A stretch of DNA of 14,391 nucleotides from a virus. Taxonomy: Duplodnaviria > Heunggongvirae > Uroviricota > Caudoviricetes. This document shows positions 23 through 13,652 of the stretch, one piece after another. Position numbers and translations under genes: made by a program. The notes below the pieces were generated by a model. It saw nothing but the letters and a program-made list of their open reading frames with translations, ran no database searches and was not told where the DNA came from. The stretch lies in the IMG/VR virus record IMGVR_UViG_2675903650_000028, one strand, 5' to 3'. The stretch's first letter is position 1. Each line of letters begins with the position of its first letter.

Positions 23-1318
23 TTAATTTTGCACCACCTCGTTTTGGGGCATGGTTGGGGCAAATTCGCTTAGCTGTGTATTTAACAGGGCTACCTGTGC
101 ATTATTGTTTTCAGACATCCATTTCCCGTATACCTGAAACACCATTTGCGCATCTGCATGTCCCATCTGGTTTGCTATGAATGCCGGGTTGGCACCGGCT
201 GTCAGCGACCAGCAGGCATAAGTATGTCTCGACTGATATGATTTGCGGTGGCGGAGGCCAGCGCGCTTTATCGCTGCGTCCCACATCTGCCTTATTGAGT
301 CAACGGTAAAATGGTCACCATAATTTTTTACTCTCGCTGACACTTCAGGTTGAAAAACAAAGGTGCATTTTTGTTTTTCTGTTCTGCCGAACTCTCTGAG
401 GTGAACGTCAATAATATGTTCTTTGCTCAGCCTCGTTAGTGTCATCTGACTCCTGAGAGCGTCGATTGCAGGCTTGATAAGGTGAATTACCCGATTGGTA
501 CCAGCCTGTGTTTTCGGTACCGTAAAACGATCTTTTGCTAAATTTCTCCTGATCATCATTGTTCCATTTTTCAGATCTATATCCTCCCACCCAAGCGCAC
601 ACAGTTCACCAGGGCGAATGCCTGTATAAACAGAAACACACCATAAATTTTTGGCCTGCTGATTTCTGCAGGCGTCGATAAGACGGATAAATTCCTCCCG
701 TGAAAGAGGATCAGGAATGGTTCTTGATTCCTTTAATGGCGAGATCCCCTTAAACGGATTATCTGCCAGGTAACCGTTATCAACACCGAACTGGAACACG
801 GCGTAAAGATTTGTCATGTAATTATTTACGGTGACAGCCGATCTCCCCGGTTGCGTAACAATATAATTACTTTTGGGGATCTGGTATCCAGTAAGTAATT
901 CTTTACGTACCGCCAGCAATTTTTCTTTATTAATCGACGAGGCAAGATTTTTTTCACCGATTATGCTCAGAATATTTTTGATGACGGCACGGTACGTGTT
1001 GAGTGACGTTTTTGCGACTTCCGTTTCTTTCAGTGCCAGAAATTTTTCAGCCAGTTCCTTTATGGTTAAATCTTGTCGGGCCTCACCAAATTTTTCCAGA
1101 TTGTGTGAGGAGGGAAACTGTTTTGCATAGTCGAAAACGCCGGTTTTTATTGCATAACAAACAGAGGCGCGCAGCTCACCTGCAACGCGCCTGTTTTTTG
1201 TCGTGTCAGGAACCCCCAGATTTTCCCTGACTCTTACACCTTTATAAACAAACCAGATACGTAATTTCCCTCCATGGTTTTCCACGCCTGTCGGATATTT
1301 CATTTTAGCTTCTCTCAT
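23..1318 (-). CDS. Phage tyrosine integrase (lambda-family site-specific recombinase)
   Basis: 431-aa ORF at the prophage end. C-terminal region has box II-like SRHTYACW and a GH...VFQVYGKW segment placing the catalytic Tyr where tyrosine recombinases have it. N-terminus (MKYPTGVE...IWF) resembles the arm-binding region of prophage integrases. Likely true start is the second ATG (1301-1303), which follows GAGAG. Confidence 0.88.
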   Translation of the reverse strand: MREAKMKYPTGVENHGGKLRIWFVYKGVRVRENLGVPDTTKNRRVAGELRASVCYAIKTGVFDYAKQFPSSHNLEKFGEARQDLTIKELAEKFLALKETEVAKTSLNTYRAVIKNILSIIGEKNLASSINKEKLLAVRKELLTGYQIPKSNYIVTQPGRSAVTVNNYMTNLYAVFQFGVDNGYLADNPFKGISPLKESRTIPDPLSREEFIRLIDACRNQQAKNLWCVSVYTGIRPGELCALGWEDIDLKNGTMMIRRNLAKDRFTVPKTQAGTNRVIHLIKPAIDALRSQMTLTRLSKEHIIDVHLREFGRTEKQKCTFVFQPEVSARVKNYGDHFTVDSIRQMWDAAIKRAGLRHRKSYQSRHTYACWSLTAGANPAFIANQMGHADAQMVFQVYGKWMSENNNAQVALLNTQLSEFAPTMPQNEVVQN

Positions 1319-1337: not shown

Positions 1338-1589
1338 TCAAGTAAGATGACGTCTTGGTCTTGCTGATGCCTGACGTTCAATCCAGCGATCAATTTCTTC
1401 CAGGTTGTAAAAGCATGGGCTGTTATCCCATGGCATACCGTCATGGGCTACATGCTTATATTCCCTTCCTTCCATAAACGATTTTTCCCTGGCTTTTTTT
1501 AGCGTTCCCTTTTTTATTCCTTTCAGCGCAATTAGCTGTTCTTCGGATACCCATTTACCGGGAGAGACAATCATGATTACTTCGCTCAT
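1338..1589 (-). CDS. Excisionase-like protein (DUF1233-type putative Xis)
   Basis: 83-aa ORF directly upstream of int on the same strand. Pattern P-x-KWV...GT-x-K-x-AR...GREY-x-HV...DG-x-P...C-x-YN...W matches my recollection of excisionase-like proteins of E. coli prophages. Confidence 0.65.
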   Translation of the reverse strand: MSEVIMIVSPGKWVSEEQLIALKGIKKGTLKKAREKSFMEGREYKHVAHDGMPWDNSPCFYNLEEIDRWIERQASARPRRHLT

Positions 1590-1658: not shown

Positions 1659-4139
1659 TTAAAAATCAGCCTGACTCGGGATCAGTTTTTGTATCGTAGC
1701 TGTAACGTATTTTGCCTGGTGACGGGCGTCATCCAGTGCATTGTGGCGCACGCCTTCGAATGGAATAACGGTTCTGGCATCAAAGTCGATTGTTTTTCCC
1801 AGCTCAACGATTGTGCGTACATCGCGATCGTTGTGGTAGCGCCACGGGCAGGGGATGTCCAGACGTTCGTATGAGGTGCGCAAAATTGCGTTATCGAAAG
1901 TCGCATCATTACCCCATACCTGAACGAATTTTTCATCTGAGTATTCGTTGATGAACTCCCGAAACTGCGAAAGGGCATCCTTCAGTTTTACCTGGTCTGT
2001 TAAAATGGCAGCTCTGGCTTCACTGGACTGCTTCAGCCACCATTCGATGGTTCCACCGTCAGGAACAGCCCCTGTATTCATTGCGTCAGTCAGACTGATA
2101 ACGATATAAAATACTGGCCCGATTTCCCCTGTTTGTGGGTCGAAGAAAACCGCACCAATAACCACGATGGGCGCATTGGTGTTGGTTCCCATTGTTTCAA
2201 GGTCGATCATCAAGTGGTACCACACTCTGCTGGTGGATGTGATAACGTGATGACCGTTCACCGCAATTAAGGGATCTGCCGTCTCGCCAGTTTCATTATC
2301 GCTGGCGTGGTCCTGAGCGCTGCCAGCATTCTCCTTGTGTGGATGTTCAGCGCCTTCCATTTCCTCCGGATCATTTTCCTGAACTTCAACCTGATTCTCT
2401 TCATTGAATGTTTCCTGGTATGTTGCGTCGCCCATCACCGCGCCACAATCAGGGCAGTTGCCGCCGCCGGTCTGACCGCAGGCGGTGCAGATCTTTTCCG
2501 GTTCCTGTTGCACTACTGGTTCAGGTTGTTTCGTTTCTGGCTCATTTTGTAACGCATTTGGGCTGTTTTGTTCCGCTTTCTGGCCGTTCTGTTCCGTTTC
2601 TTGCTGGTTTTGGTTCACAGAATCGCGGGTTTCCATCCCCTTCACCCATTTCGGATCATTCGGATCGCTAATTCCTGCAACAAATTCACCACGTGATACT
2701 GCAAGCAGTTCATCGGCGTCAGGCTGGCTGATATTGGCTGCCTGCATAATGTTGTTTACTTCGTCAGCGGTAACTTTTACCGGCCCTGGTTGTGCGGTCG
2801 TGTCAGATGCACCAGTATTTTGTTGTGAACCTGAGTATGTACTGTTTTTGCGGACGAAATATTCTTCTTTCGTGATTTCAGTAGCCCCGGCAGCCAGTGC
2901 CTTATCCAGACCAGAAAGTTTGTTTGCGCGACCGTATTTTTCGCCATCCTTGTCGGTGAAGAGGAAGTAGAACGGCCCCTCACGCTCTACAGATGGTTCG
3001 ACTTCCACTTTGCATTCGGTTTTTTCGTTGTCCGGAATTGCCGTTTCCACTGCATCAGTTTCTGGTACTGGCGACGAGAGAGTATCAGTTGCGATCTGAT
3101 TTGTTCCTTCATCTTCAAACACGCCCTTTGTAGTCAGGTATTCAGTAATGTATTTGTTCAGTGCCACAGGGTCTTTGTGAATGTCGATCGGACGCTCACG
3201 GACAAGGCCAAAAATAGTCTGGCGGTCGTAGCGAAGGGCATCAGGCTGTTTGCGCATTGATGCTGAGATACGCTTCCAGTCTTCGCGGTCGTTGTTGATA
3301 ACTTCATTTTTTGCCCAGCGATGGATGCTGCCGTCAATGTTTCCGGCATCAATGTCACCAGGCCACAGAGCGTAGGCCAGTTCATCATCCAGTGTTTTCC
3401 ATGTCTGCTTATATTCGCGACGAATGACTGCAGTGACAGGGGAGATATTTTCTGCTGAGTTTTCAGTGTGCTGTCGGTTGACTCTGGCGCGGGCGAGATC
3501 AACAGCAGACGTGTATTTTCCGGTTTCCTTGCGTTCACCTTCGCGACGTTTTTTCCAGATGCGCATCTCTGCCTGAATTTCGGGCCATTTAGCTCCAGGC
3601 TTACATTTATGCTTAACCCACCCGATGGCATGCAACTTAAGTTCTGGATACATGGCGTTAACTTCTGGCATTTTCATCAACGCTTCAACGATATGTCCGT
3701 CGAATGTTGCCATGTCTTCCTGCAACAGTTCCTGTGCACTAATCACCATATCAACGGTGATGTTTTCACATGTGTCGAACTTAACCATGACAGCGTTCTG
3801 TACTTCAGGGGCCAGCTTGTCAAAAGTGACGTTCATCGGATCTGATTCAGTCTCAACCGGGACAAAGGAAGCTGACTCCTCATCCCAGCGGTTTTCCTGC
3901 ATATATTCAGCATCCCAGGAATCGAGGGCAGGGCGGGGTATACCGGGTTTATCCTCGCAAACAAGAAATTTATAAGCGCAGTCCTGAGCAGCCGGATAAT
4001 GTTCCAGGAATTGCCAGTGAAATTTTGCGCGGGCGCGACGTTCATCACCGGCTTCAATGGCAGTGGCTACAGCGACTGCACCTTCTTCCTTTATTGCCTG
4101 TTCGTCCGGAATGGCGGCGCAAATAAAGACTTTACTCAT
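1659..4139 (-). CDS. RecE-like exonuclease (exodeoxyribonuclease VIII family) with C-terminal DEDDh-type 3'-5' exonuclease domain and Cys4 zinc ribbon
   Basis: 826-aa ORF. Central stretch (…SRGEFVAGISDPNDPKWVKG…, C-T-A-C-G-x8-C-P-D-C, …DPEEMEGAEHPH…) matches my recollection of the RecE linker region. C-terminal ~190 aa carries Exo I (MIDLETMG), Exo II (WGNDATFD) and Exo III (HNALDDA) motifs. SD GAGG lies upstream of the ATG at 4139. Confidence 0.8.
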   Translation of the reverse strand: MSKVFICAAIPDEQAIKEEGAVAVATAIEAGDERRARAKFHWQFLEHYPAAQDCAYKFLVCEDKPGIPRPALDSWDAEYMQENRWDEESASFVPVETESDPMNVTFDKLAPEVQNAVMVKFDTCENITVDMVISAQELLQEDMATFDGHIVEALMKMPEVNAMYPELKLHAIGWVKHKCKPGAKWPEIQAEMRIWKKRREGERKETGKYTSAVDLARARVNRQHTENSAENISPVTAVIRREYKQTWKTLDDELAYALWPGDIDAGNIDGSIHRWAKNEVINNDREDWKRISASMRKQPDALRYDRQTIFGLVRERPIDIHKDPVALNKYITEYLTTKGVFEDEGTNQIATDTLSSPVPETDAVETAIPDNEKTECKVEVEPSVEREGPFYFLFTDKDGEKYGRANKLSGLDKALAAGATEITKEEYFVRKNSTYSGSQQNTGASDTTAQPGPVKVTADEVNNIMQAANISQPDADELLAVSRGEFVAGISDPNDPKWVKGMETRDSVNQNQQETEQNGQKAEQNSPNALQNEPETKQPEPVVQQEPEKICTACGQTGGGNCPDCGAVMGDATYQETFNEENQVEVQENDPEEMEGAEHPHKENAGSAQDHASDNETGETADPLIAVNGHHVITSTSRVWYHLMIDLETMGTNTNAPIVVIGAVFFDPQTGEIGPVFYIVISLTDAMNTGAVPDGGTIEWWLKQSSEARAAILTDQVKLKDALSQFREFINEYSDEKFVQVWGNDATFDNAILRTSYERLDIPCPWRYHNDRDVRTIVELGKTIDFDARTVIPFEGVRHNALDDARHQAKYVTATIQKLIPSQADF

Positions 4140-4219: not shown

Positions 4220-4423
4220 TTACGGTGCTGTTTTAAGTCCTGCCGGGATTTCGTTATTATCCATGAGAATAACTTTATCGACCGGATAGCAGTTACCGGG
4301 AATTTTTTGTTCTGCTGCGGCAGCCATGCATTCTTTCATTGAACCGTAAATGTCAATAACCATGTCAACAGGCTCGCCAGTATTAAGAAAAACAGTCAGA
4401 GTGAGGGCAATAGTAGTATTCAT
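4220..4423 (-). CDS. ydfD: YdfD-like small protein (Qin lysis protein homolog)
   Basis: 67 codons from an internal ATG (4421-4423) preceded by AAGGA; the track ORF extends to 4477. Its ATG overlaps the dicB stop (ATGA). Hydrophobic N-terminus (TIALTLTVFL). Position immediately after dicB matches the dicB-ydfD order of Qin; the protein sequence itself is not confidently recalled. Confidence 0.55.
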   Translation of the reverse strand: MNTTIALTLTVFLNTGEPVDMVIDIYGSMKECMAAAAEQKIPGNCYPVDKVILMDNNEIPAGLKTAP

Positions 4424-4608
4424 TGCCAGTATCCTTTTTGCATCGGGCGTAAACGTGCCAGCATTGAAAGAATGCATATTTTATTTAATAGCTCCCGTTC
4501 GTGTTTTCTCTTATTAATGGCATCTTCAGTAAATACAGGGTTACTGATTCTGACACCAATTTCAAAACAACCTTCAGACGTATTGACGTTTGGTAATAAC
4601 GTTTCCAT
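4420..4608 (-). CDS. dicB: Cell division inhibitor DicB
   Basis: 62-aa product from internal ATG 4606-4608 with GAGGA SD. Sequence METLLPNVNTSEGCFEIGV...NKICI.SMLARLR matches my recollection of 62-aa DicB. The track ORF 4420..4704 is a 5'-extended version. Confidence 0.8.
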   Translation of the reverse strand: METLLPNVNTSEGCFEIGVRISNPVFTEDAINKRKHERELLNKICILSMLARLRPMQKGYWQ

Positions 4609-4787
4609 TATCGCGTCCTCAACAATGAATTTTGTGATGCGGTGCCTGGTGCCTCCAGGTGACGTTAACCAGTTAATAATTAACGCCGGATACAGAGAAC
4701 CCACCCATAAGAACCAATACGGAAGTCAACTGGCCTTTTTAACTGTTCCGCGTGCGCTGAGCCGCATTCACCGCATCACAAAATTCA

Positions 4788-4850
4788 CTTTAAAAGGGGC
4801 GGGTATCATAGGAAAAACAAAACGGATACCCGCTAAAAGGTAATCAACAT
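4788..4850 (-). ncRNA. dicF: DicF-like small RNA (approximate ends)
   Basis: On the minus strand: ...UUUUAGCGGGUAUC-(17-nt loop)-GAUACCCGCCCCUUUU, a hairpin plus short U-tract, followed by AAAGUGAAUUUUGUGAUG. Position (between ydfC and dicB) and architecture match my recollection of DicF and its 3' flank. The loop sequence differs from what I recall for K-12. Confidence 0.45.
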
Positions 4851-5174
4851 GGGTTGTTGCAGCGGGGTTGTCACTCAGGCGTATGGTCAACCTGACAACC
4901 CGGTGGACATTTGCGAGGAACGGAGAACCCCCGCCATACTTACCGCCGCGCCATTTCGCGGAGTGCCACAACCGGAAGCGCACGGTCGACGAAAATTTAA
5001 CGACAGGCTATCTATGAACCAGCAACCTCGCCGTGCGCTTTCGCGTTATGCTCTGACTTTTCAGAGAAATATCCTTTCAGTAAACTGTCAGTGCCGGATG
5101 CTCACCCGTGTCCGGCGCACACACTCCACCTCACCCGTGGAGAACTCCTTAATTACCAACCCTCAGGAGGGTGA

Positions 5175-5303
5175 ATGTTAAAATCAACGCTTATTGCTAA
5201 ATGCCTTTATCAAAATCGCATGGTAAGCAGCATTTCAATAGGCGAATCTGTAGTTAAAAGTATTTTCGAAGAGTACTTTCGAAGAGTACTTTTCTGGGCG
5301 TGA
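5175..5303 (+). CDS. Doubtful 42-codon ORF antisense to the dicB operon
   Basis: ATG 5175 is preceded by AGGAGG (5165-5170), which can pair within a CCCUCAGGAGGG hairpin. The ORF contains a tandem 13-nt repeat (not a multiple of 3), which argues against real coding. Confidence 0.2.
   Translation: MLKSTLIAKCLYQNRMVSSISIGESVVKSIFEEYFRRVLFWA
5265..5290. repeat. Perfect tandem 13-mer TTCGAAGAGTACT x2, near-palindromic (AGTACT / TTCGAA cores)
   Basis: Read directly from sequence; preceded by a partial third copy (AGTATT). Confidence 0.7.
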
Positions 5304-5398
5304 TTTTAATAAATGGAATACCAAATTACCGCCAGCAGTTTCAACGCGTATTCTGAAAGCAACTGAAAGAGCAAGTACAATTCGCGTTAACTATTTCA

Positions 5399-5806
5399 TT
5401 AAAGATTTGTGGGATCTTTGATATCCACAGAGCCTAAAGTATGTGCATATGGATGTGCTATTGTGCGCCCCTGTAAATTTGCATCGTTTTCTAAATCTTT
5501 TGATTTCAACAGAACATCAGCAAGACTCTGAATCATGCAGAGATAATCAAAAACAGTTGCCGTTTCTGTTCTGATTGCTGAAATAACATGACCATTCAGG
5601 CAAACAGAAATTACCCGTTCATCAATATCGTTTTTCTGTTTTTGATTATCAGAACCATATAGCCCTGAAAAAGCATTGCGCACATTACGAACCATATTAT
5701 CGATGGTTTCTTTTTTGGTGTATGCCGGGTCAATTTTCACCAGACTATCACCGAGTGTCGTTGCAGCAATTATCTGGATTTCTTTTGGTAAATCTTTAAA
5801 TTCCAT
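5399..5806 (-). CDS. Hypothetical protein (135 aa), low-GC insertion inside the dicB operon
   Basis: ORF with GAGG SD 7 nt upstream of ATG 5806, 22 nt downstream of the ydfC stop. Visibly AT-rich relative to flanking genes. No motif recognised. Confidence 0.6.
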   Translation of the reverse strand: MEFKDLPKEIQIIAATTLGDSLVKIDPAYTKKETIDNMVRNVRNAFSGLYGSDNQKQKNDIDERVISVCLNGHVISAIRTETATVFDYLCMIQSLADVLLKSKDLENDANLQGRTIAHPYAHTLGSVDIKDPTNL

Positions 5807-5828
5807 TATTAGCCTCGTTGGTTAACCA

Positions 5829-6500: not shown

Positions 6501-6533
6501 CAACCAAAAAGATAACGCATTGATTGCGTTATC
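6501..6533 (-). terminator. Intrinsic terminator at the dicA 3' end (bidirectional-looking)
   Basis: GATAACGCA / TGCGTTATC 9-bp stem with 5-nt loop overlaps the dicA stop; followed by TTTTTGG on the minus strand and TTTTGTTTG on the plus strand. Confidence 0.6.
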
Positions 6534-6936
6534 TTTTGTTTGTTCGTTGACGGGCTTTTAATAACTCTTCAAAGAGTTTGTTGAAATTTTTTACTCGGGC
6601 GCGCATCTCGGTGAGCTGAGCATCCTGTTCTGATTCAGGCAATGCATTAAAAAGCTCAAGGAGCTCATGTTCTTTGGGGGATAGAGCAACTGGCTCCTCA
6701 ATAGGTGGTGATGGCTGCTTGTCTTCATCGCCAAATAGAATCCATGTTGGCGAGCACTGCAGTACTTTGCTGAGGGCAAAAAGATTCTTTCCTGTAGGTT
6801 CGCTATCATCCCGCTCCCATTGTGAAACCGATACGTGAGAAATTTTCAGGGCTTTAGCAAGAGACCTTTGGGTGTATTTGAGGTTTTTTCGGCGATATCT
6901 AATGCGTTCGCCAATGGTTAAATTTTTTGTATCCAT
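6529..6936 (-). CDS. dicA: DicA repressor (HTH, Xre/cI-like)
   Basis: 135-aa ORF. N-terminal HTH (LTIGERIRYRRKNLKYTQRSLAKALKISHVSVSQWER) and the rest of the sequence match my recollection of DicA. Divergent from a Cro-like gene. Confidence 0.88.
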   Translation of the reverse strand: MDTKNLTIGERIRYRRKNLKYTQRSLAKALKISHVSVSQWERDDSEPTGKNLFALSKVLQCSPTWILFGDEDKQPSPPIEEPVALSPKEHELLELFNALPESEQDAQLTEMRARVKNFNKLFEELLKARQRTNKR

Positions 6937-7250: not shown

Positions 7251-7755
7251 ACAGGTTTGTGAGGCTCTGGATGCCTGGGTGTGCCGACCAGGAATGACAC
7301 AGGAGCAGGCGACGATATTAATCACGGAAGCATTCTGGGCTCTGAAAGAACGCCCGAACATCGATGTTCAACGCGTCACGTTTAATGATGGCGAGGTTGA
7401 TCAACGGGCGCTGGGCGTTAACCGGGTGAAGATATTCGAACGCTGGAAAGCTATCGACACCAGGGATAAGCGGAAAAAATTCACGGCGCTGATTCCGGCA
7501 ATTATGGAGGCTATCCGGATTAATGATTTCAGGTTGTATCGTGAAATTAGTGACGGAAAAAGCATCACGTACATGATCGCCGGGTTAAACAAAGAATATG
7601 GCGATGTGGTGGAGTCCGGGCTGCTTTTTGCAGATCCAGCTGTAGTGGATCGTGAAACTGACGAACTTATAGAAAAAGCCATTGCTTTCAAACTTGCGTA
7701 TCGACAGCAATACCAACAAAAAGCTGGATGGAATTATGAGTCTTCTTTTTGCTGA
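7234..7755 (+). CDS. YdaT-like protein (putative CII-position regulator or toxin family)
   Basis: 173-aa ORF overlapping the dicC 3' end by 17 nt, in the position occupied by ydaT/cII in lambdoid prophages. Weak pattern resemblance to YdaT (MKI..E...A..W...ALIPAI). Confidence 0.55.
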   Translation: MKITPEQVCEALDAWVCRPGMTQEQATILITEAFWALKERPNIDVQRVTFNDGEVDQRALGVNRVKIFERWKAIDTRDKRKKFTALIPAIMEAIRINDFRLYREISDGKSITYMIAGLNKEYGDVVESGLLFADPAVVDRETDELIEKAIAFKLAYRQQYQQKAGWNYESSFC

Positions 7756-8701
7756 ACGCCCACTGGTTATAAACACGCAGCTGGCAATGAAAATTGGCTT
7801 AAACGAAGCCATTGTTTTGCAACAACTGCACTACTGGTTGAGAGATACCAACTCCGGCATGGAATGTGATGGTGTTCGCTGGATTTATAACACAACGGAA
7901 CAATGGCTGGAACAGTTCCCGTTCTGGTCAGAGTCAACGTTAAAGCGCGCGTTTGCAAGTCTGAAAACGCTGGGGCTTATGCGTTGTGAAAAGCTCAATA
8001 AATCAAAGCGCGATATGACCAATTTCTACACGATCAACTACGGGAGCGAGCTTTTAGATGGTGGCAAAGTGAGCGAATCCATCGGTTCAAAATGCGCCGC
8101 TCCATCAGGTCAAAATGACACGATGGAAGAGGTCAAAATGAAACGCTCCATTGGTTCAAAACGGCTCAATGTCATCGGGTCAAAATGGCCTGATGATCTT
8201 ACAGAGAATACAACAGAGATTACTACAGAGAATAAAAACACTTCTCGTCCGGAAGCTTCGCAACCGGACCCGCAGACGGTTGAACAGGATTTTTTAACCC
8301 GACACCCTGACGCGGTTGTGTTCAGTGCAAAAAAACGCCAGTGGGGCAACCAGGAAGATTTGGCGTGTGCGCAGTGGATCTGGGGACGAATCGTGAGTCT
8401 TTACGAGCAGGCCGCCAGCGATGATGGCGAGATTTCGCGACCGAAAGAACCCAACTGGACCGCATGGGCCAACGACGTGCGCACAATGCGGATGCTGGAT
8501 GGCAGAACTCACAGACAAATTTGTGAAATGTTTGGTCGGGCGCAGCGGGATCCATTCTGGGTAAAAAATATCATGAGTCCGTCAAAGCTTCGCGGAAAAT
8601 GGGATGAACTGGTTATCCGCCTGGGGCGTTCGTCTGTACAGCGTTGTGTGAATCATATTTCTGAGCCGGATACCGAAATTCCGCCGGGGTTCAGGGGGTA
8701 A
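7736..8701 (+). CDS. Phage replication initiator (O-like, iteron-containing)
   Basis: ORF to 8701. Preferred start is ATG 7736, not the TTG at 7682 used by the track. Carries an internal iteron array at the DNA level and an (I)GSK repeat in the protein. Followed immediately by a DnaC-like gene. Confidence 0.75.
   Translation: MSLLFAERPLVINTQLAMKIGLNEAIVLQQLHYWLRDTNSGMECDGVRWIYNTTEQWLEQFPFWSESTLKRAFASLKTLGLMRCEKLNKSKRDMTNFYTINYGSELLDGGKVSESIGSKCAAPSGQNDTMEEVKMKRSIGSKRLNVIGSKWPDDLTENTTEITTENKNTSRPEASQPDPQTVEQDFLTRHPDAVVFSAKKRQWGNQEDLACAQWIWGRIVSLYEQAASDDGEISRPKEPNWTAWANDVRTMRMLDGRTHRQICEMFGRAQRDPFWVKNIMSPSKLRGKWDELVIRLGRSSVQRCVNHISEPDTEIPPGFRG
8084..8187. repeat. Origin-type iterons: five copies of GG(G)T(T)CAAAA(T/C)G at 22-24 bp spacing inside the O-like gene, followed by an A+T-rich stretch
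   Basis: Copies at 8084-8094, 8108-8117, 8131-8140, 8153-8163 and 8177-8187. Downstream, 8190-8250 is AT-rich with a repeated ACAGAGAATA. Confidence 0.7.
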
Positions 8702-10718: not shown

Positions 10719-11141
10719 ATGAAAATGACTGAATTAACAAAAGAACAATTAATCGAAGAAGCCAAATTAAAAATAGCGATTACGAAATGCCACCCCAATT
10801 CAGGGATGGCGCGAGTAGAGGGCGAGTTATTCAAAATTGCACTGGCATCGCTGGAAGCAGAGCCGATAGCGTGGCGATATCGCTACGTGAAAAAAGGTGT
10901 TATGGACTCTCAGGGGGAGTTGTGGGTTGGTGACTGGAAATATGTACCGAAAAAAGAGGATTGTAACGACAGGCCGAACTATGAAATTCAGGCCTTATTC
11001 ACTGCCCCACCAGTCCCGGTTACATCAGAAGAACTGGTTAAAGCTGTGCACTTTTATGAACAACTAAAACGCGAAAATCCACCAGCATCCGGCAACCAGA
11101 TTAATGGGTTAACTATGCCGGTTAAACGACCAGCCGACTGA
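10719..11141 (+). CDS. Hypothetical protein (140 aa)
   Basis: ORF after a 90-bp structured intergenic gap; alternative start at ATG 10725. Confidence 0.6.
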   Translation: MKMTELTKEQLIEEAKLKIAITKCHPNSGMARVEGELFKIALASLEAEPIAWRYRYVKKGVMDSQGELWVGDWKYVPKKEDCNDRPNYEIQALFTAPPVPVTSEELVKAVHFYEQLKRENPPASGNQINGLTMPVKRPAD

Positions 11142-11615: not shown

Positions 11616-11684
11616 GACTGTGGGTGCTTGAGGCTATCTGTCTCAGGCATGAACACCAAAAGGCAGATAGAGAAAAGCCCCAGT

Positions 11685-11743
11685 TAACATTACGCGTCCT
11701 GCAAGACGCTTAACATTAATCTGAGGCTCAATCCATGCTGAAC
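11685..11743 (-). ncRNA. Putative Sok-like antisense RNA (approximate)
   Basis: Minus-strand promoter-like TTGCCT-17 nt-TAACCT (plus coordinates 11778-11750). The transcript would be complementary to the SD and start of the upstream in-frame ORF (ATG 11735) and would contain hairpin GCGUC-UUGCAG-GACGC (11693-11708). About 60 nt. Confidence 0.3.
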
Positions 11744-11791
11744 ACATGTAGGTTAGCCTCTTACGTGCCGAAAGGCAAGGAGAAGCAGGCT

Positions 11792-11947
11792 ATGAAGCAG
11801 CAAAAGGCGATGTTAATCGCCCTTATCGTCATCTGTTTAACCGTCATAGTGACGGCACTGGTAACGAGGAAAGACCTCTGCGAGGTACGAATTCGAACCG
11901 GCCAGACGGAGGTCGCTGTCTTCACAGCTTACGAACCTGAGGAGTAA
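11792..11947 (+). CDS. hokD: Hok-family type I toxin (HokD/RelF-like)
   Basis: 51-aa product MKQQKAMLIALIVICLTVIVTALVTRKDLCEVRIRTGQTEVAVFTAYEPEE: Hok signature with one transmembrane helix and CEV.IRTGQTEVAVF. An in-frame upstream start at 11735 gives the 70-aa track ORF (mok-like; not resolved). Confidence 0.85.
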   Translation: MKQQKAMLIALIVICLTVIVTALVTRKDLCEVRIRTGQTEVAVFTAYEPEE

Positions 11948-12351: not shown

Positions 12352-12846
12352 TTGTACTCTATGGCTGAGATTGTTGAAGGAGTGCATTACCTTACGGTTG
12401 ATGATCTTGTTGAAATCAATCATTCCCTAATTGAATTACAGACGCCAGATGAGCCCGTTGGTGTTCTGAGTCCAGATAACTTAAGTTCTTCTCAGGCCCG
12501 TCCCAGCATGGTTCGATGGTATGAACAGACTAATGACATGTTTGTACTGGCATCGGTATTGATTGAAAGTCTGATTCAGAATCATCCGTTTGCTAATGCG
12601 AACAAACGAACAGCTATGATGGCTGGTTACGTCTTCTTGTTGTTGAATGGCTATGAGTTAACAGCACCAGGCGATGAAATCGTGGAAATGGCAGAGGGAC
12701 TGGCCTGCAAAACCTATACTCGAGAAGATCTCGAGAACTGGTTGTGTTATTGGTCTCGCGCGTATGACAGCCGGGAATTATGTAAAACAAGCGCAACTAT
12801 TGTTTTGTATGAAACTATCAAGCTTAAAATAGAACAGCAAAACTAA
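12352..12846 (+). CDS. Doc-family (Fic/Doc) toxin
   Basis: Motif HPFANANKRTA matches the Doc-type H-x-F-x-(D/N)-(A/G)-N-K-R signature. Start is ambiguous (TTG 12352 or ATG 12361) and has a weak SD. Confidence 0.7.
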   Translation: MYSMAEIVEGVHYLTVDDLVEINHSLIELQTPDEPVGVLSPDNLSSSQARPSMVRWYEQTNDMFVLASVLIESLIQNHPFANANKRTAMMAGYVFLLLNGYELTAPGDEIVEMAEGLACKTYTREDLENWLCYWSRAYDSRELCKTSATIVLYETIKLKIEQQN

Positions 12847-13373: not shown

Positions 13374-13652
13374 ATGGCGCAAAATTCCAGACTACACAAT
13401 TCTGATAATTCAGCCGCCTTTGCCAGCAGGCACGGGCGGCGCTCTCATGCATTCAAATATGACTGGTATCAGCACGATCCCTGCACCGAAGAACAGGCTG
13501 AATGGCTGATTCAGCGCTACCGCAGACACGGATACGAGATTAAGAAAGCCCTCAGCCTCGATTATCGTCTCTGGATAATCTACGTCAGACTCCCTTATTC
13601 CGAACGCCCACCGCGTCCGTCCCGCACATTCCAGCAACGCATCTGGAGGTAA
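13374..13652 (+). CDS. Hypothetical protein (92 aa)
   Basis: GGAGA SD 6 nt upstream. Stop TAA (13650-13652) lies 1 nt before the GTG of the next ORF. Confidence 0.5.
   Translation: MAQNSRLHNSDNSAAFASRHGRRSHAFKYDWYQHDPCTEEQAEWLIQRYRRHGYEIKKALSLDYRLWIIYVRLPYSERPPRPSRTFQQRIWR

What the first reader, a model, noticed from the sequence alone, without database searches (positions are those of the whole stretch)
1659..4139. RecE-like protein with DEDDh 3'-5' exonuclease motifs at its C-terminus and no RecT partner
The central region resembles the RecE linker as I recall it and includes a Cys4 zinc ribbon. The C-terminal ~190 aa shows Exo I/II/III motifs of the DnaQ/RNase T-like superfamily (MIDLETMG, WGNDATFD, HNALDDA) rather than the PD-(D/E)XK 5'-3' nuclease expected of canonical RecE. 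No annealase gene is adjacent; the next genes upstream in the operon are ydfD and dicB. The N-terminal ~480 aa are unassigned. Similar proteins may already carry an exodeoxyribonuclease VIII label in databases, so this is likely uncharacterised rather than unknown.
Basis: partly seen in the sequence, partly recalled or inferred. Interest (0 to 1): 0.55.

Follow-up and report, generated by a model that had tools for sequence, protein, structure and literature searches.

The report
Prophage RecE-like protein with 3'-5' exonuclease
This is the intact form of the E. coli Qin-prophage gene ydfE, a very common and already annotated but untested phage protein that joins a RecE-like scaffold to a DnaQ/DexA-type 3'-5' exonuclease and never comes with a partner annealing protein.

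Summary
ORF 1659-4139 (-) encodes 826 aa. Residues 1-256 are 94% identical to the IS2-truncated K-12 Qin pseudogene product YdfE. Residues 262-625 match RecE 278-591, including a CxxC-x8-CxxC zinc ribbon. Residues 642-814 are a DEDDh exonuclease domain (Pfam Rv2179c-like, E=5e-67); the nearest solved relative is T4 DexA. There is no PD-(D/E)XK domain. No RecT, Bet, Rad52-like annealase or Gam was found in the window, in a 30-kb homologous prophage region, or in the whole genomes of phages Evi and Tritos. Among 80 related viral contigs, 0 of 43 DEDDh forms have RecT, against 33 of 37 PD-(D/E)XK forms.

It is not new. At least 80% of the gene is present in 3526 of 5426 complete E. coli genomes, annotated '3'-5' exonuclease'. 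Pfam has YdfE_N and YdfE_C families. A 2025 survey reports DnaQ-like nucleases in lambdoid early-left operons and a nuclease-only, Chi-rich class whose prototype, Tritos, carries an 83%-identical copy.

The most likely function is a 3'-5' DNA exonuclease of the early-left operon, in phages that leave recombination to host RecBCD/Chi. The biological role is untested. In passing, the same N-terminal module is fused elsewhere to a Rad52-like annealase.

The parts
1659..4139 (-). Whole ORF, 826 aa: the intact ydfE-type RecE-like protein with a DEDDh exonuclease
   Evidence: It is 100% identical to NCBI protein P0001 and matches PHROG 2082 'exonuclease' over its full length.
3105..4139 (-). YdfE-type N-terminal module, aa 1-345. 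AF2 gives three confident sub-domains: aa 1-90 (alpha/beta), 100-200 (helical) and 240-340 (helical, shared with RecE 278-370).
2844..2981 (-). Conserved mini-domain, aa 387-432 (GPFYFLF...GRANK...EITKEEY): a beta-hairpin pair plus helices
   Evidence: This is the most conserved stretch across the YdfE-type family (nearly invariant columns in A3). AF2 pLDDT is 75-84. It is absent from K-12 RecE, which shows a gap here.
2262..2747 (-). RecE-type acidic/Gln-rich linker, aa 465-626
   Evidence: BLASTP against K-12 RecE. The NCBIfam NF007259 partial match covers aa 445-626.
2442..2489 (-). CxxC-x8-CxxC zinc ribbon, aa 551-566
   Evidence: Read directly from the sequence. The same motif occurs in K-12 RecE.
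1698..2216 (-). DEDDh 3'-5' exonuclease domain, aa 642-814. Predicted catalytic residues are D646, E648, D749, H799 and D804.
   Evidence: Pfam PF16473 E=4.7e-67. The PDB sequence search returns only T4 DexA, 8kel/8ken, E=2.6e-7. The catalytic residues align with DexA D7/E9/D119/H186/D191. They are invariant in 154-155 of 155 homologues. dN/dS has a median of 0.16 over 30 alleles.
2187..2210 (-). Exo I motif MIDLETMG
1893..1916 (-). Exo II motif WGNDATFD
1725..1745 (-). Exo III motif HNALDDA (the 'h' variant)
4220..4477 (-). Upstream operon gene of the ydfD family (DUF1482)
   Evidence: Pfam PF07358 E=1e-19. RefSeq annotation in L001.
4420..4608 (-). Upstream operon gene dicB
   Evidence: Pfam PF05358 E=1.2e-36 on aa 33-94 of ORF 4420-4704. 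RefSeq dicB in L001.
1338..1589 (-). Downstream excisionase (DUF1233, xisR-like)
23..1318 (-). Downstream integrase, marking the left end of the prophage
6529..6936 (-). DicA/CI-like HTH repressor at the head of the leftward gene block, presumed to control the operon
   Evidence: Pfam HTH_3 and Phage_CI_repr. The gene order is the same as K-12 Qin dicA-ydfABC-dicF-dicB-ydfD-ydfE and phage Tritos.

Best explanation
The ORF is the intact version of the Qin-prophage gene ydfE. It is a modular protein of the lambdoid early-left operon, sitting where Rac carries recE-recT. It has three parts. The first is a YdfE-type N-terminal module of unknown biochemical function. The second is the RecE-type linker with a zinc ribbon. 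The third is a DEDDh (DnaQ-like, DexA/Rv2179c-type) exonuclease where RecE has its PD-(D/E)XK 5'-3' nuclease.

Shown here: the architecture, the intact and selectively maintained active site, the complete absence of a phage annealase or Gam, and the membership of its carriers in the Chi-rich 'nuclease-only' class of lambdoid phages.

Inferred: the enzyme is a metal-dependent 3'-5' exonuclease acting on DNA 3' ends. The gene order suggests it is made together with DicB and YdfD when the DicA/CI-like repressor is lifted. It does not start Red/RecET-type single-strand annealing, because it would remove the 3' tails that annealases use.

Most speculative: these phages leave recombination to host RecBCD-Chi-RecA. 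The enzyme may trim or blunt 3' ends so that RecBCD can load, or it may degrade unprotected unmodified DNA for nucleotide supply, as T4 DexA does.
For: Architecture.

Active enzyme: all five DEDDh residues are kept in 154-155 of 155 homologues. dN/dS for the domain is about 0.16. The gene is intact in the sequenced phages Evi, Tritos, mEp460_ev081, HannyBb and PhiR42_1.

DNA rather than RNA substrate: the only solved relatives found by sequence are T4 DexA chains, and Rv2179c does not appear at E<=1. The partner domains in the same family are all DNA-recombination domains: the RecE nuclease, RecT and a Rad52-like fold.

No annealase: Pfam on the window ORFs. Six-frame phmmer/hmmsearch with RecT, Bet, lambda Exo, Gam, the RecE C-terminus and a Rad52-like profile found nothing at E<=10 in the window, the 30-kb locus L001, the Evi genome or the Tritos genome. 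Of the viral contigs, 0 of 43 DEDDh-type have RecT, Bet or a Rad52-like domain, against 33 of 37 PD-(D/E)XK-type with RecT.

Host RecBCD context: Chi sites number 9/2 in Tritos, 3/12 in Evi and 2/3 in the window, against fewer than 1 expected per strand. PMC12315714 lists Tritos as the prototype of a class with a nuclease, no SAP and no anti-RecBCD protein, with 7-21 top-strand Chi sites. The same paper reports DnaQ-like 3'-5' nucleases in lambdoid early-left operons, often close to int.

Operon context: the gene lies on the same strand as dicB and ydfD, about 80 nt downstream of ydfD. No sigma-70-like site was predicted on that strand between 1300 and 7300.
Against: No biochemical data exist for this protein or any fused homologue. 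Polarity and substrate are inferred from the fold family only, and the Pfam family is named after an exoribonuclease. 3'-5' exonucleases usually inhibit homologous recombination (noted in PMC12315714), so a positive role in recombination is not obvious. The end-blunting idea is my inference from E. coli genetics, not a result. A stand-alone E. coli relative, EcD, is reported to be an anti-T4 defence nuclease (PMC12153337), so an exclusion role cannot be ruled out. The function of the N-terminal module is unknown, and no structural analogue was found. The pairwise dN/dS of the DEDDh domain against the close Evi copy was 0.6, although that rests on very few substitutions.
Confidence: 0.6

Rival explanations
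1. The protein is an anti-phage exclusion nuclease of the HREX/EcD kind. It would degrade the DNA of superinfecting phages, for example cytosine-modified T-even DNA, and so benefit the lysogen. That benefit would explain why the gene is kept in so many cryptic prophages.
For: PMC12153337 reports that the stand-alone E. coli DexA homologue EcD cleaves 5hmC DNA, spares unmodified DNA and protects against T4. EcD-like 189-aa proteins, recovered through the published primer, are homologous to this domain (35% identity, phmmer E about 4e-28). The gene is very common: at least 80% of its length is present in 3526 of 5426 genomes, with up to 10 places per genome. From my own knowledge of the literature, not checked here, the neighbouring DicB is reported to block lambda and 434 DNA entry.
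Against: DexA W152 is required for cleavage of T4 DNA. It is kept in the EcD-like proteins and in the stand-alone Flotzy enzyme, but it is H769 here, and that position varies (H/Y/C/T/S) across the fused family. DexA D169 aligns with a conserved Phe. DexA D90, whose loss defines the EcD-like 'dimer-only' state, is retained here as D721 in 154 of 155 sequences. The gene sits in the repressed early-left operon and no promoter-like site of its own was predicted. PADLOC gives only a weak generic DEDDh hit (E=3e-5). The K-12 copy is destroyed by IS2.
Confidence: 0.2
2. The protein is a 3'-5' exoribonuclease, like the family founder Rv2179c. It would act on phage or host RNA, for example by trimming or turning over transcripts of the dicBF operon.
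For: The best Pfam family is '3'-5' exoribonuclease Rv2179c-like'. There is a weak NCBIfam hit to oligoribonuclease (E=0.007). Many RefSeq copies are named '3'-5' exoribonuclease'. Relatives such as Qin and Tritos carry the sRNA DicF in the same operon.
Against: The only solved structures found by sequence are of the DNA exonuclease T4 DexA. The domains that replace this one in sister proteins are all DNA-recombination domains. This window has no DicF at all, so the gene does not depend on it. The family names are inherited from Pfam and were not tested.
Confidence: 0.12
3. The protein is a functional RecE equivalent that works with an unrecognised annealase elsewhere in the prophage. Alternatively, it is a decaying remnant with no function.
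For: It occupies the recE position, shares the RecE linker and carries 'exonuclease VIII' labels in several records. Most copies lie in prophages that may be defective.
Against: A 3'-5' polarity cannot generate the 3' tails used by RecT, Bet or Rad52-type annealases. No annealase of these three families was found in two complete phage genomes or in 43 related loci. Decay is contradicted by the intact ORF, the invariant catalytic residues and low dN/dS, and by the gene's presence in sequenced phages.
Confidence: 0.05

Closest known systems
RecE (exonuclease VIII) of the Rac prophage, E. coli K-12
   Same: It occupies the same position in the lambdoid early-left operon, upstream of xis and int. 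Both proteins share a helical domain (aa 262-345 against RecE 278-370). Their acidic linker with the CxxC-x8-CxxC zinc ribbon is nearly identical (aa ~470-625 against RecE ~450-591). Sister proteins such as P0129 have the full RecE N-terminus plus this DEDDh domain.
   Different: The catalytic domain is DEDDh, not PD-(D/E)XK. The expected polarity is 3'-5', not 5'-3'. The first 256 aa are YdfE-type, not PF06630. No recT follows the gene. The upstream genes are dicB and ydfD rather than racC, ydaE and kilR.
Phage T4 DexA (exonuclease A; PDB 8kel/8ken)
   Same: DexA is the nearest solved relative of the C-terminal domain (E=2.6e-7, 27-32% identity). All five catalytic residues align, and D90 of the tetramer interface is conserved.
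   Different: DexA is a stand-alone 227-aa protein of a virulent phage and has extra loops. Its W152 and D169, needed for 5hmC DNA, are not conserved here (H769 and F786).
EcD / 'HREX' stand-alone DexA homologue of E. coli (PMC12153337)
   Same: It has the same DEDDh fold family and is an E. coli mobile-element gene. EcD-like 189-aa proteins share 35% identity with this domain.
   Different: EcD is a single domain. It has Ala at the D90-equivalent position and keeps the W152 equivalent, whereas this protein has the opposite state at both positions. An anti-T4 role has been reported for EcD only.
Stand-alone ~186-aa exonucleases next to xis/int in temperate E. coli and Salmonella phages (Flotzy, mEp460, ST64B sb30, SKA5)
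   Same: They are about 60% identical to the C-terminal domain and sit in the same place, just upstream of xis and int.
   Different: They lack the YdfE/RecE scaffold, and they keep the W152-equivalent Trp.
'Tritos-type' nuclease-only Rec module and DnaQ-like nucleases of lambdoid phages (Zheng et al., Genome Res 2025, PMC12315714)
   Same: Phage Tritos carries an 83%-identical full-length copy in the same order: int-xis-exo-ydfD-dicB. The paper's class has a nuclease, no SAP and no anti-RecBCD protein, and is Chi-rich.
   Different: Nothing material differs. The main text held here does not describe the domain architecture or the swap of nuclease domains. The window's copy of the operon lacks DicF.
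Rv2179c of Mycobacterium tuberculosis (founder of Pfam PF16473)
   Same: Same Pfam family.
   Different: Rv2179c is a stand-alone bacterial exoribonuclease, and it was not retrieved by the sequence search of the PDB at E<=1.

Membership tests
RecE / exodeoxyribonuclease VIII (NCBIfam NF007259 equivalog) | C-terminal PD-(D/E)XK 5'-3' nuclease domain | tested here: not met
   Pfam gives no such hit. phmmer with RecE aa 596-866 finds nothing at E<=10 in the window.
RecE / exodeoxyribonuclease VIII (NCBIfam NF007259 equivalog) | Whole-protein score above the curated cut-off | tested here: not met
   283 bits against a cut-off of 1269. Only aa 445-626 match.
RecE / exodeoxyribonuclease VIII (NCBIfam NF007259 equivalog) | N-terminal Exonuc_VIII domain (PF06630) | tested here: not met
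   Pfam gives no hit at E<=1. The N-terminus is YdfE-type.
RecE / exodeoxyribonuclease VIII (NCBIfam NF007259 equivalog) | Adjacent recT annealase gene | tested here: not met
   Of related DEDDh loci, 0 of 43 have RecT, against 33 of 37 RecE loci.
RecE / exodeoxyribonuclease VIII (NCBIfam NF007259 equivalog) | Central linker with a Cys4 zinc ribbon | tested here: met
DEDDh (DnaQ-like) exonucleases, Pfam PF16473 Rv2179c-like | Pfam score above the gathering threshold | tested here: met
   225.6 bits against 27, aa 642-814, covering profile positions 2-175 of 177.
DEDDh (DnaQ-like) exonucleases, Pfam PF16473 Rv2179c-like | Exo I (DxE), Exo II (D) and Exo III (H-x4-D) catalytic residues | tested here: met
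   D646, E648, D749, H799 and D804 align with the DexA catalytic residues. They are invariant in 154-155 of 155 homologues.
DEDDh (DnaQ-like) exonucleases, Pfam PF16473 Rv2179c-like | Metal-dependent 3'-5' exonuclease activity | not testable with these tools
   Requires a biochemical assay.
HREX / EcD-type modification-dependent defence exonuclease (PMC12153337) | Residues needed for 5hmC DNA cleavage (DexA W152 and D169 equivalents) | tested here: not met
   H769 and F786 by MAFFT. The Trp is kept in the EcD-like proteins and in Flotzy. The alignment around D169 is uncertain.
HREX / EcD-type modification-dependent defence exonuclease (PMC12153337) | Loss of the tetramer-interface Asp (DexA D90; A78 in EcD) | tested here: not met
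   D721 is retained in 154 of 155 sequences.
HREX / EcD-type modification-dependent defence exonuclease (PMC12153337) | Protection against T4-like phages | not testable with these tools
   Requires plaque and growth assays.
YdfE family (Pfam PF27430 YdfE_N, PF27432 YdfE_C) | Matches to both Pfam families and identity to K-12 YdfE | tested here: met
   Precomputed hits exist on the identical protein P0001. Identity to K-12 YdfE is 241/256. The two families are not in the local Pfam copy, so the scores were not recomputed.
Tritos-type nuclease-only Rec module of Chi-rich lambdoid phages (PMC12315714) | A nuclease present, with no SAP and no anti-RecBCD gene | tested here: met
   Erf, Sak4 and SSB families were not searched with dedicated profiles.
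Tritos-type nuclease-only Rec module of Chi-rich lambdoid phages (PMC12315714) | Abundant, strand-biased Chi sites | tested here: inconclusive
   Tritos has 9/2 and Evi 3/12, which are clearly biased. The 14.4-kb window has 2/3, enriched over the 0.22 expected per strand but without bias, and it covers only the early region.

The most novel reading that the evidence does not exclude
The YdfE/RecE N-terminal scaffold may be a common delivery or targeting module of lambdoid phages. Across the family it carries interchangeable DNA-end enzymes: a PD-(D/E)XK 5'-3' exonuclease, a DEDDh 3'-5' exonuclease, a Rad52-like annealase or RecT. On this reading the DEDDh version defines an annealase-independent strategy, in which trimming of 3' ends prepares phage DNA ends for host RecBCD-Chi recombination. 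That would give the first function for the long-unexplained N-terminal two-thirds of RecE.
Probability: 0.2. Interest if true: 0.6.

Novelty: already known. Interest (0 to 1): 0.3.

Why it matters
At least 80% of this gene is present in about two-thirds of complete E. coli genomes, often in several copies, yet no experiment has addressed it. It is also often labelled 'exonuclease VIII', which implies the wrong fold, the wrong polarity and a RecT partner it never has.

Learning what a 3'-5' exonuclease does in the recombination slot of Chi-rich lambdoid phages that lack Gam would test the recent proposal that such phages depend on host RecBCD. The shared N-terminal scaffold is also relevant to recombineering. 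Full-length RecE is reported to behave differently from the truncated nuclease (from my own knowledge of that literature, not checked here), and the reason is unknown.

None of this makes the finding surprising. The domain content is already in Pfam, PHROGs and RefSeq, and the arrangement has been catalogued.

Tried and rejected

3. Recovering EcD. The reverse cloning primer from PMC12153337 gave either no match or one chance match in the viral contigs. The forward primer worked. The exact accession HAK9828821.1 could not be fetched, so 'EcD-like' rests on the primer match, the MIDTET start and Ala at position 78.

4. PADLOC gave only a weak, generic Cas-associated DEDDh hit, which does not count as evidence for a defence system.

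5. Literature searches for ydfE, for Rv2179c with prophage, and for RecE with DEDDh found no experimental work on this protein. One search was wasted because 'RecE' matched 'receptor'.

6. The promoter and terminator scan found nothing above chance near the gene.

7. DicF was looked for and is not in this window.

8. A first dN/dS attempt failed because it ignored indels. It was redone with codon alignments.
Full report
OBSERVATION. The window is the left arm of a Qin-like lambdoid prophage of E. coli. It is 99.1% identical over 94% of its length to strain AST205. On the minus strand, listed from the prophage end inward against the direction of transcription, the genes are: integrase (23-1318), excisionase (1338-1589), the 826-aa ORF (1659-4139), a DUF1482/ydfD-family gene, dicB, ydfC, ydfB, ydfA and a DicA/CI-like repressor. 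On the plus strand they are followed by cro, ydaT, replication genes, hok/sok and a Doc toxin. K-12 Qin has the same order, and there ydfE is a pseudogene cut by IS2. The sequenced phage Tritos has it too.

ANATOMY OF THE PROTEIN. Residues 1-256 are 94% identical (241/256) to K-12 YdfE up to the IS2 junction, so this ORF is the intact ydfE. Residues 262-625 align with RecE 278-591 at 40% identity overall, E=6e-65. From about residue 470 the match is nearly identical and includes the zinc ribbon CTACGQTGGGNCPDCG. The NCBIfam RecE equivalog matches only this stretch, at 283 bits against a cut-off of 1269.

Residues 642-814 match Pfam PF16473 (Rv2179c-like 3'-5' exoribonuclease domain) at E=4.7e-67, and more weakly RNase_T. 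The only solved structures found by sequence are two T4 DexA chains, 8kel and 8ken, at E=2.6e-7. D646, E648, D749, H799 and D804 align with DexA D7, E9, D119, H186 and D191.

These five residues are kept in 154-155 of 155 homologous domains. The domain has a median dN/dS of 0.16 against 30 distinct alleles. The folded N-terminal sub-domains have dN/dS of 0.03-0.10 against the phage Evi copy, while one disordered linker (aa 201-240) is near 1.1.

NO ANNEALASE. Pfam scans of 20 other window ORFs found no RecT, Erf, Bet or Rad52 family. Six-frame phmmer/hmmsearch was run with K-12 RecT, lambda Bet, Exo and Gam, the RecE nuclease domain and a Rad52-like profile. It found nothing at E<=10 in the window, in 30 kb of the AST205 prophage, in the whole genome of phage Evi (94%-identical copy) or in phage Tritos (83%-identical copy).

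A scan of IMG/VR with a sister protein (P0129: RecE N-terminus plus DEDDh) returned 80 loci. Of these, 43 carry the DEDDh C-terminus. None of them has RecT, Bet or a Rad52-like domain, although 40 have at least 1 kb of downstream sequence. In 37 of the 43, dicB and ydfD lie immediately upstream. The other 37 loci carry the PD-(D/E)XK C-terminus, and 33 of them have recT downstream. The nuclease type and the presence of an annealase are therefore tightly coupled.

THE FAMILY IS MODULAR. An exhaustive search with residues 1-640 found only 247 clusters at 50% identity. The long members combine the modules freely:
- YdfE-type N-terminus plus DEDDh (this protein, P0121).
- RecE-type N-terminus (PF06630) plus DEDDh (P0129, P0138, P0256).
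- YdfE-like N-terminus plus the RecE nuclease (P0132, P0202, P0205, P0236).
- RecE N-terminus plus RecT (P0196).
- Many 700-790-aa Enterobacter, Klebsiella and Citrobacter proteins whose C-terminal ~260 aa match no Pfam family at E<=0.001 or PDB sequence at E<=1.

Foldseek had missed this. The next gene in such a locus is a Sipho_Gp157 homologue. From my own knowledge, Gp157 genes are common neighbours of phage annealases. The YdfE module is thus attached to an annealase in some phages and to a nuclease of either polarity in others. This ties the module to DNA-end transactions but does not say what it does.

WHAT IS ALREADY KNOWN. The protein is identical to an NCBI entry (P0001), and more than 7,700 clusters at 90% identity match it. 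They are named 'exonuclease', '3'-5' exoribonuclease' or 'putative exonuclease VIII'. At least 80% of the gene is present in 3526 of 5426 complete E. coli genomes, with up to 10 places per genome. Full-length copies occur in 17 phage records, including Evi, mEp460_ev081, the PPompW prophages, Tritos, HannyBb and PhiR42_1.

Zheng et al. [quoted passage not shown] They also define a class whose prototype is Tritos: nuclease present, no SAP, no SSB, no anti-RecBCD protein and 7-21 top-strand Chi sites. My counts agree: Chi is 9/2 in Tritos, 3/12 in Evi and 2/3 in the window, against fewer than 1 expected per strand. The same paper mentions 'RecE-2' proteins that lack a nuclease domain and have no known role. 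These may be the Rad52-like fusions described above, but I could not check that.

RELATION TO DexA AND EcD. Kang et al. (NAR 2025, PMC12153337) show that T4 DexA needs W152 and D169 to cut 5hmC DNA and D90 to form the tetramer that cuts unmodified DNA. They also show that the stand-alone E. coli homologue EcD (Ala at the D90 position, Trp kept) cuts only modified DNA and protects against T4.

Using their forward primer I recovered 189-aa proteins that start MIDTET and have Ala78. These are 35% identical to the domain studied here. The ~186-aa stand-alone enzymes of phages such as Flotzy, mEp460 and ST64B are about 60% identical to it.

In the four-way alignment, the W152 equivalent is Trp in EcD-like, Flotzy and DexA but His769 here, and that position varies (H/Y/C/T/S) across the fused family. 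The D90 equivalent is retained as D721. By the logic of that one paper, this enzyme should prefer unmodified DNA, the opposite of EcD. This is an inference from an alignment, not a measurement.

MECHANISM. I commit to the following. The protein is a metal-dependent 3'-5' DNA exonuclease. The gene order suggests it is made with DicB and YdfD from the repressor-controlled leftward operon. It lies on the same strand, 80 nt after ydfD, with no predicted promoter of its own. It does not initiate RecET/Red-type annealing. The phages that carry it have neither an annealase nor a RecBCD inhibitor and are Chi-rich, so host RecBCD/RecA presumably supplies recombination.

The architecture, the selection on it, the lack of partners and the Chi context are shown. 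The polarity and the DNA substrate are inferred from family membership. The proposed roles, 3'-end trimming for RecBCD entry or DexA-like scavenging of unmodified DNA, are speculation.

The rivals are an HREX-like exclusion nuclease (weakened by the residue pattern and by the operon position), an RNA exonuclease (weakened by the closer similarity to DexA and the DNA-recombination company the module keeps), and a RecE equivalent with a hidden annealase or a dead gene (contradicted by the searches and by selection).

VERDICT. Both the observation and the interpretation are correct, but the object is a very common, annotated and recently catalogued kind of prophage gene. It is uncharacterised rather than new. 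The added value here is threefold. It identifies the gene as intact ydfE. It shows the strict coupling between nuclease type and the presence of RecT. It shows that the same scaffold is fused to a Rad52-like annealase in other enterobacterial prophages.

Noticed in passing
[not shown]
   Followed up: yes
Protein P0196 (703 aa): A RecE N-terminal domain (PF06630) is fused directly to a RecT domain (aa 528-678), with the nuclease domain missing. This could be a natural fusion or a deletion product..
   Followed up: no
Proteins P0126, P0240 (PHROG 26058): A further C-terminal type is attached to the YdfE module (conserved 'ALxDLLSGRTDVM...LTxAALxGxCANP'). It has no Pfam or PDB match at all..
   Followed up: partly
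window 4705-5828: The sRNA DicF lies between ydfC and dicB in K-12 Qin and in phage Tritos but is absent here, with no Rfam hit even at E<=1. The interval holds a 135-aa ORF (5399-5806, minus strand) with no Pfam match. There is also a sub-threshold STnc100 hit at 4631-4785 (33.5 bits against a gathering score of 47)..
   Followed up: partly
window 2229-2236; L092 (Tritos) 27079; L005 (Evi) 29592: A Chi octamer lies inside the exonuclease gene in the window, in Tritos and in Evi. In the window it falls just before the start of the DEDDh domain. These phages are strongly Chi-enriched overall..
   Followed up: partly
window 11622-11947 and 12352-12846: There is a hok/sok type I toxin-antitoxin locus (Rfam sok, 118.9 bits) with a hokD-like ORF. 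A Fic/Doc-family toxin ORF follows, and L001 annotates it as a death-on-curing toxin..
   Followed up: no
L007 4004-4564 (phage Flotzy); L008 3995-4568 (phage SKA5): Stand-alone ~186-aa versions of the same DEDDh domain (about 60% identity) sit just upstream of xis/int in temperate phages. In SKA5 the gene is split into two ORFs, both labelled 'exodeoxyribonuclease VIII'..
   Followed up: partly
L095, L100, L110, L111, L113, L116 (IMG/VR contigs): These contigs encode 189-aa EcD-like proteins (MIDTET..., Ala78) that match the forward cloning primer of PMC12153337. The published reverse primer differs from these genes by one extra A near the stop codon..
   Followed up: partly
window 7682-8701 (+), 10719-11141 (+), 13374-13652 (+): Three sizeable ORFs of the rightward operon have no Pfam match. 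One is the 339-aa ORF in the replication-initiator position..
   Followed up: no
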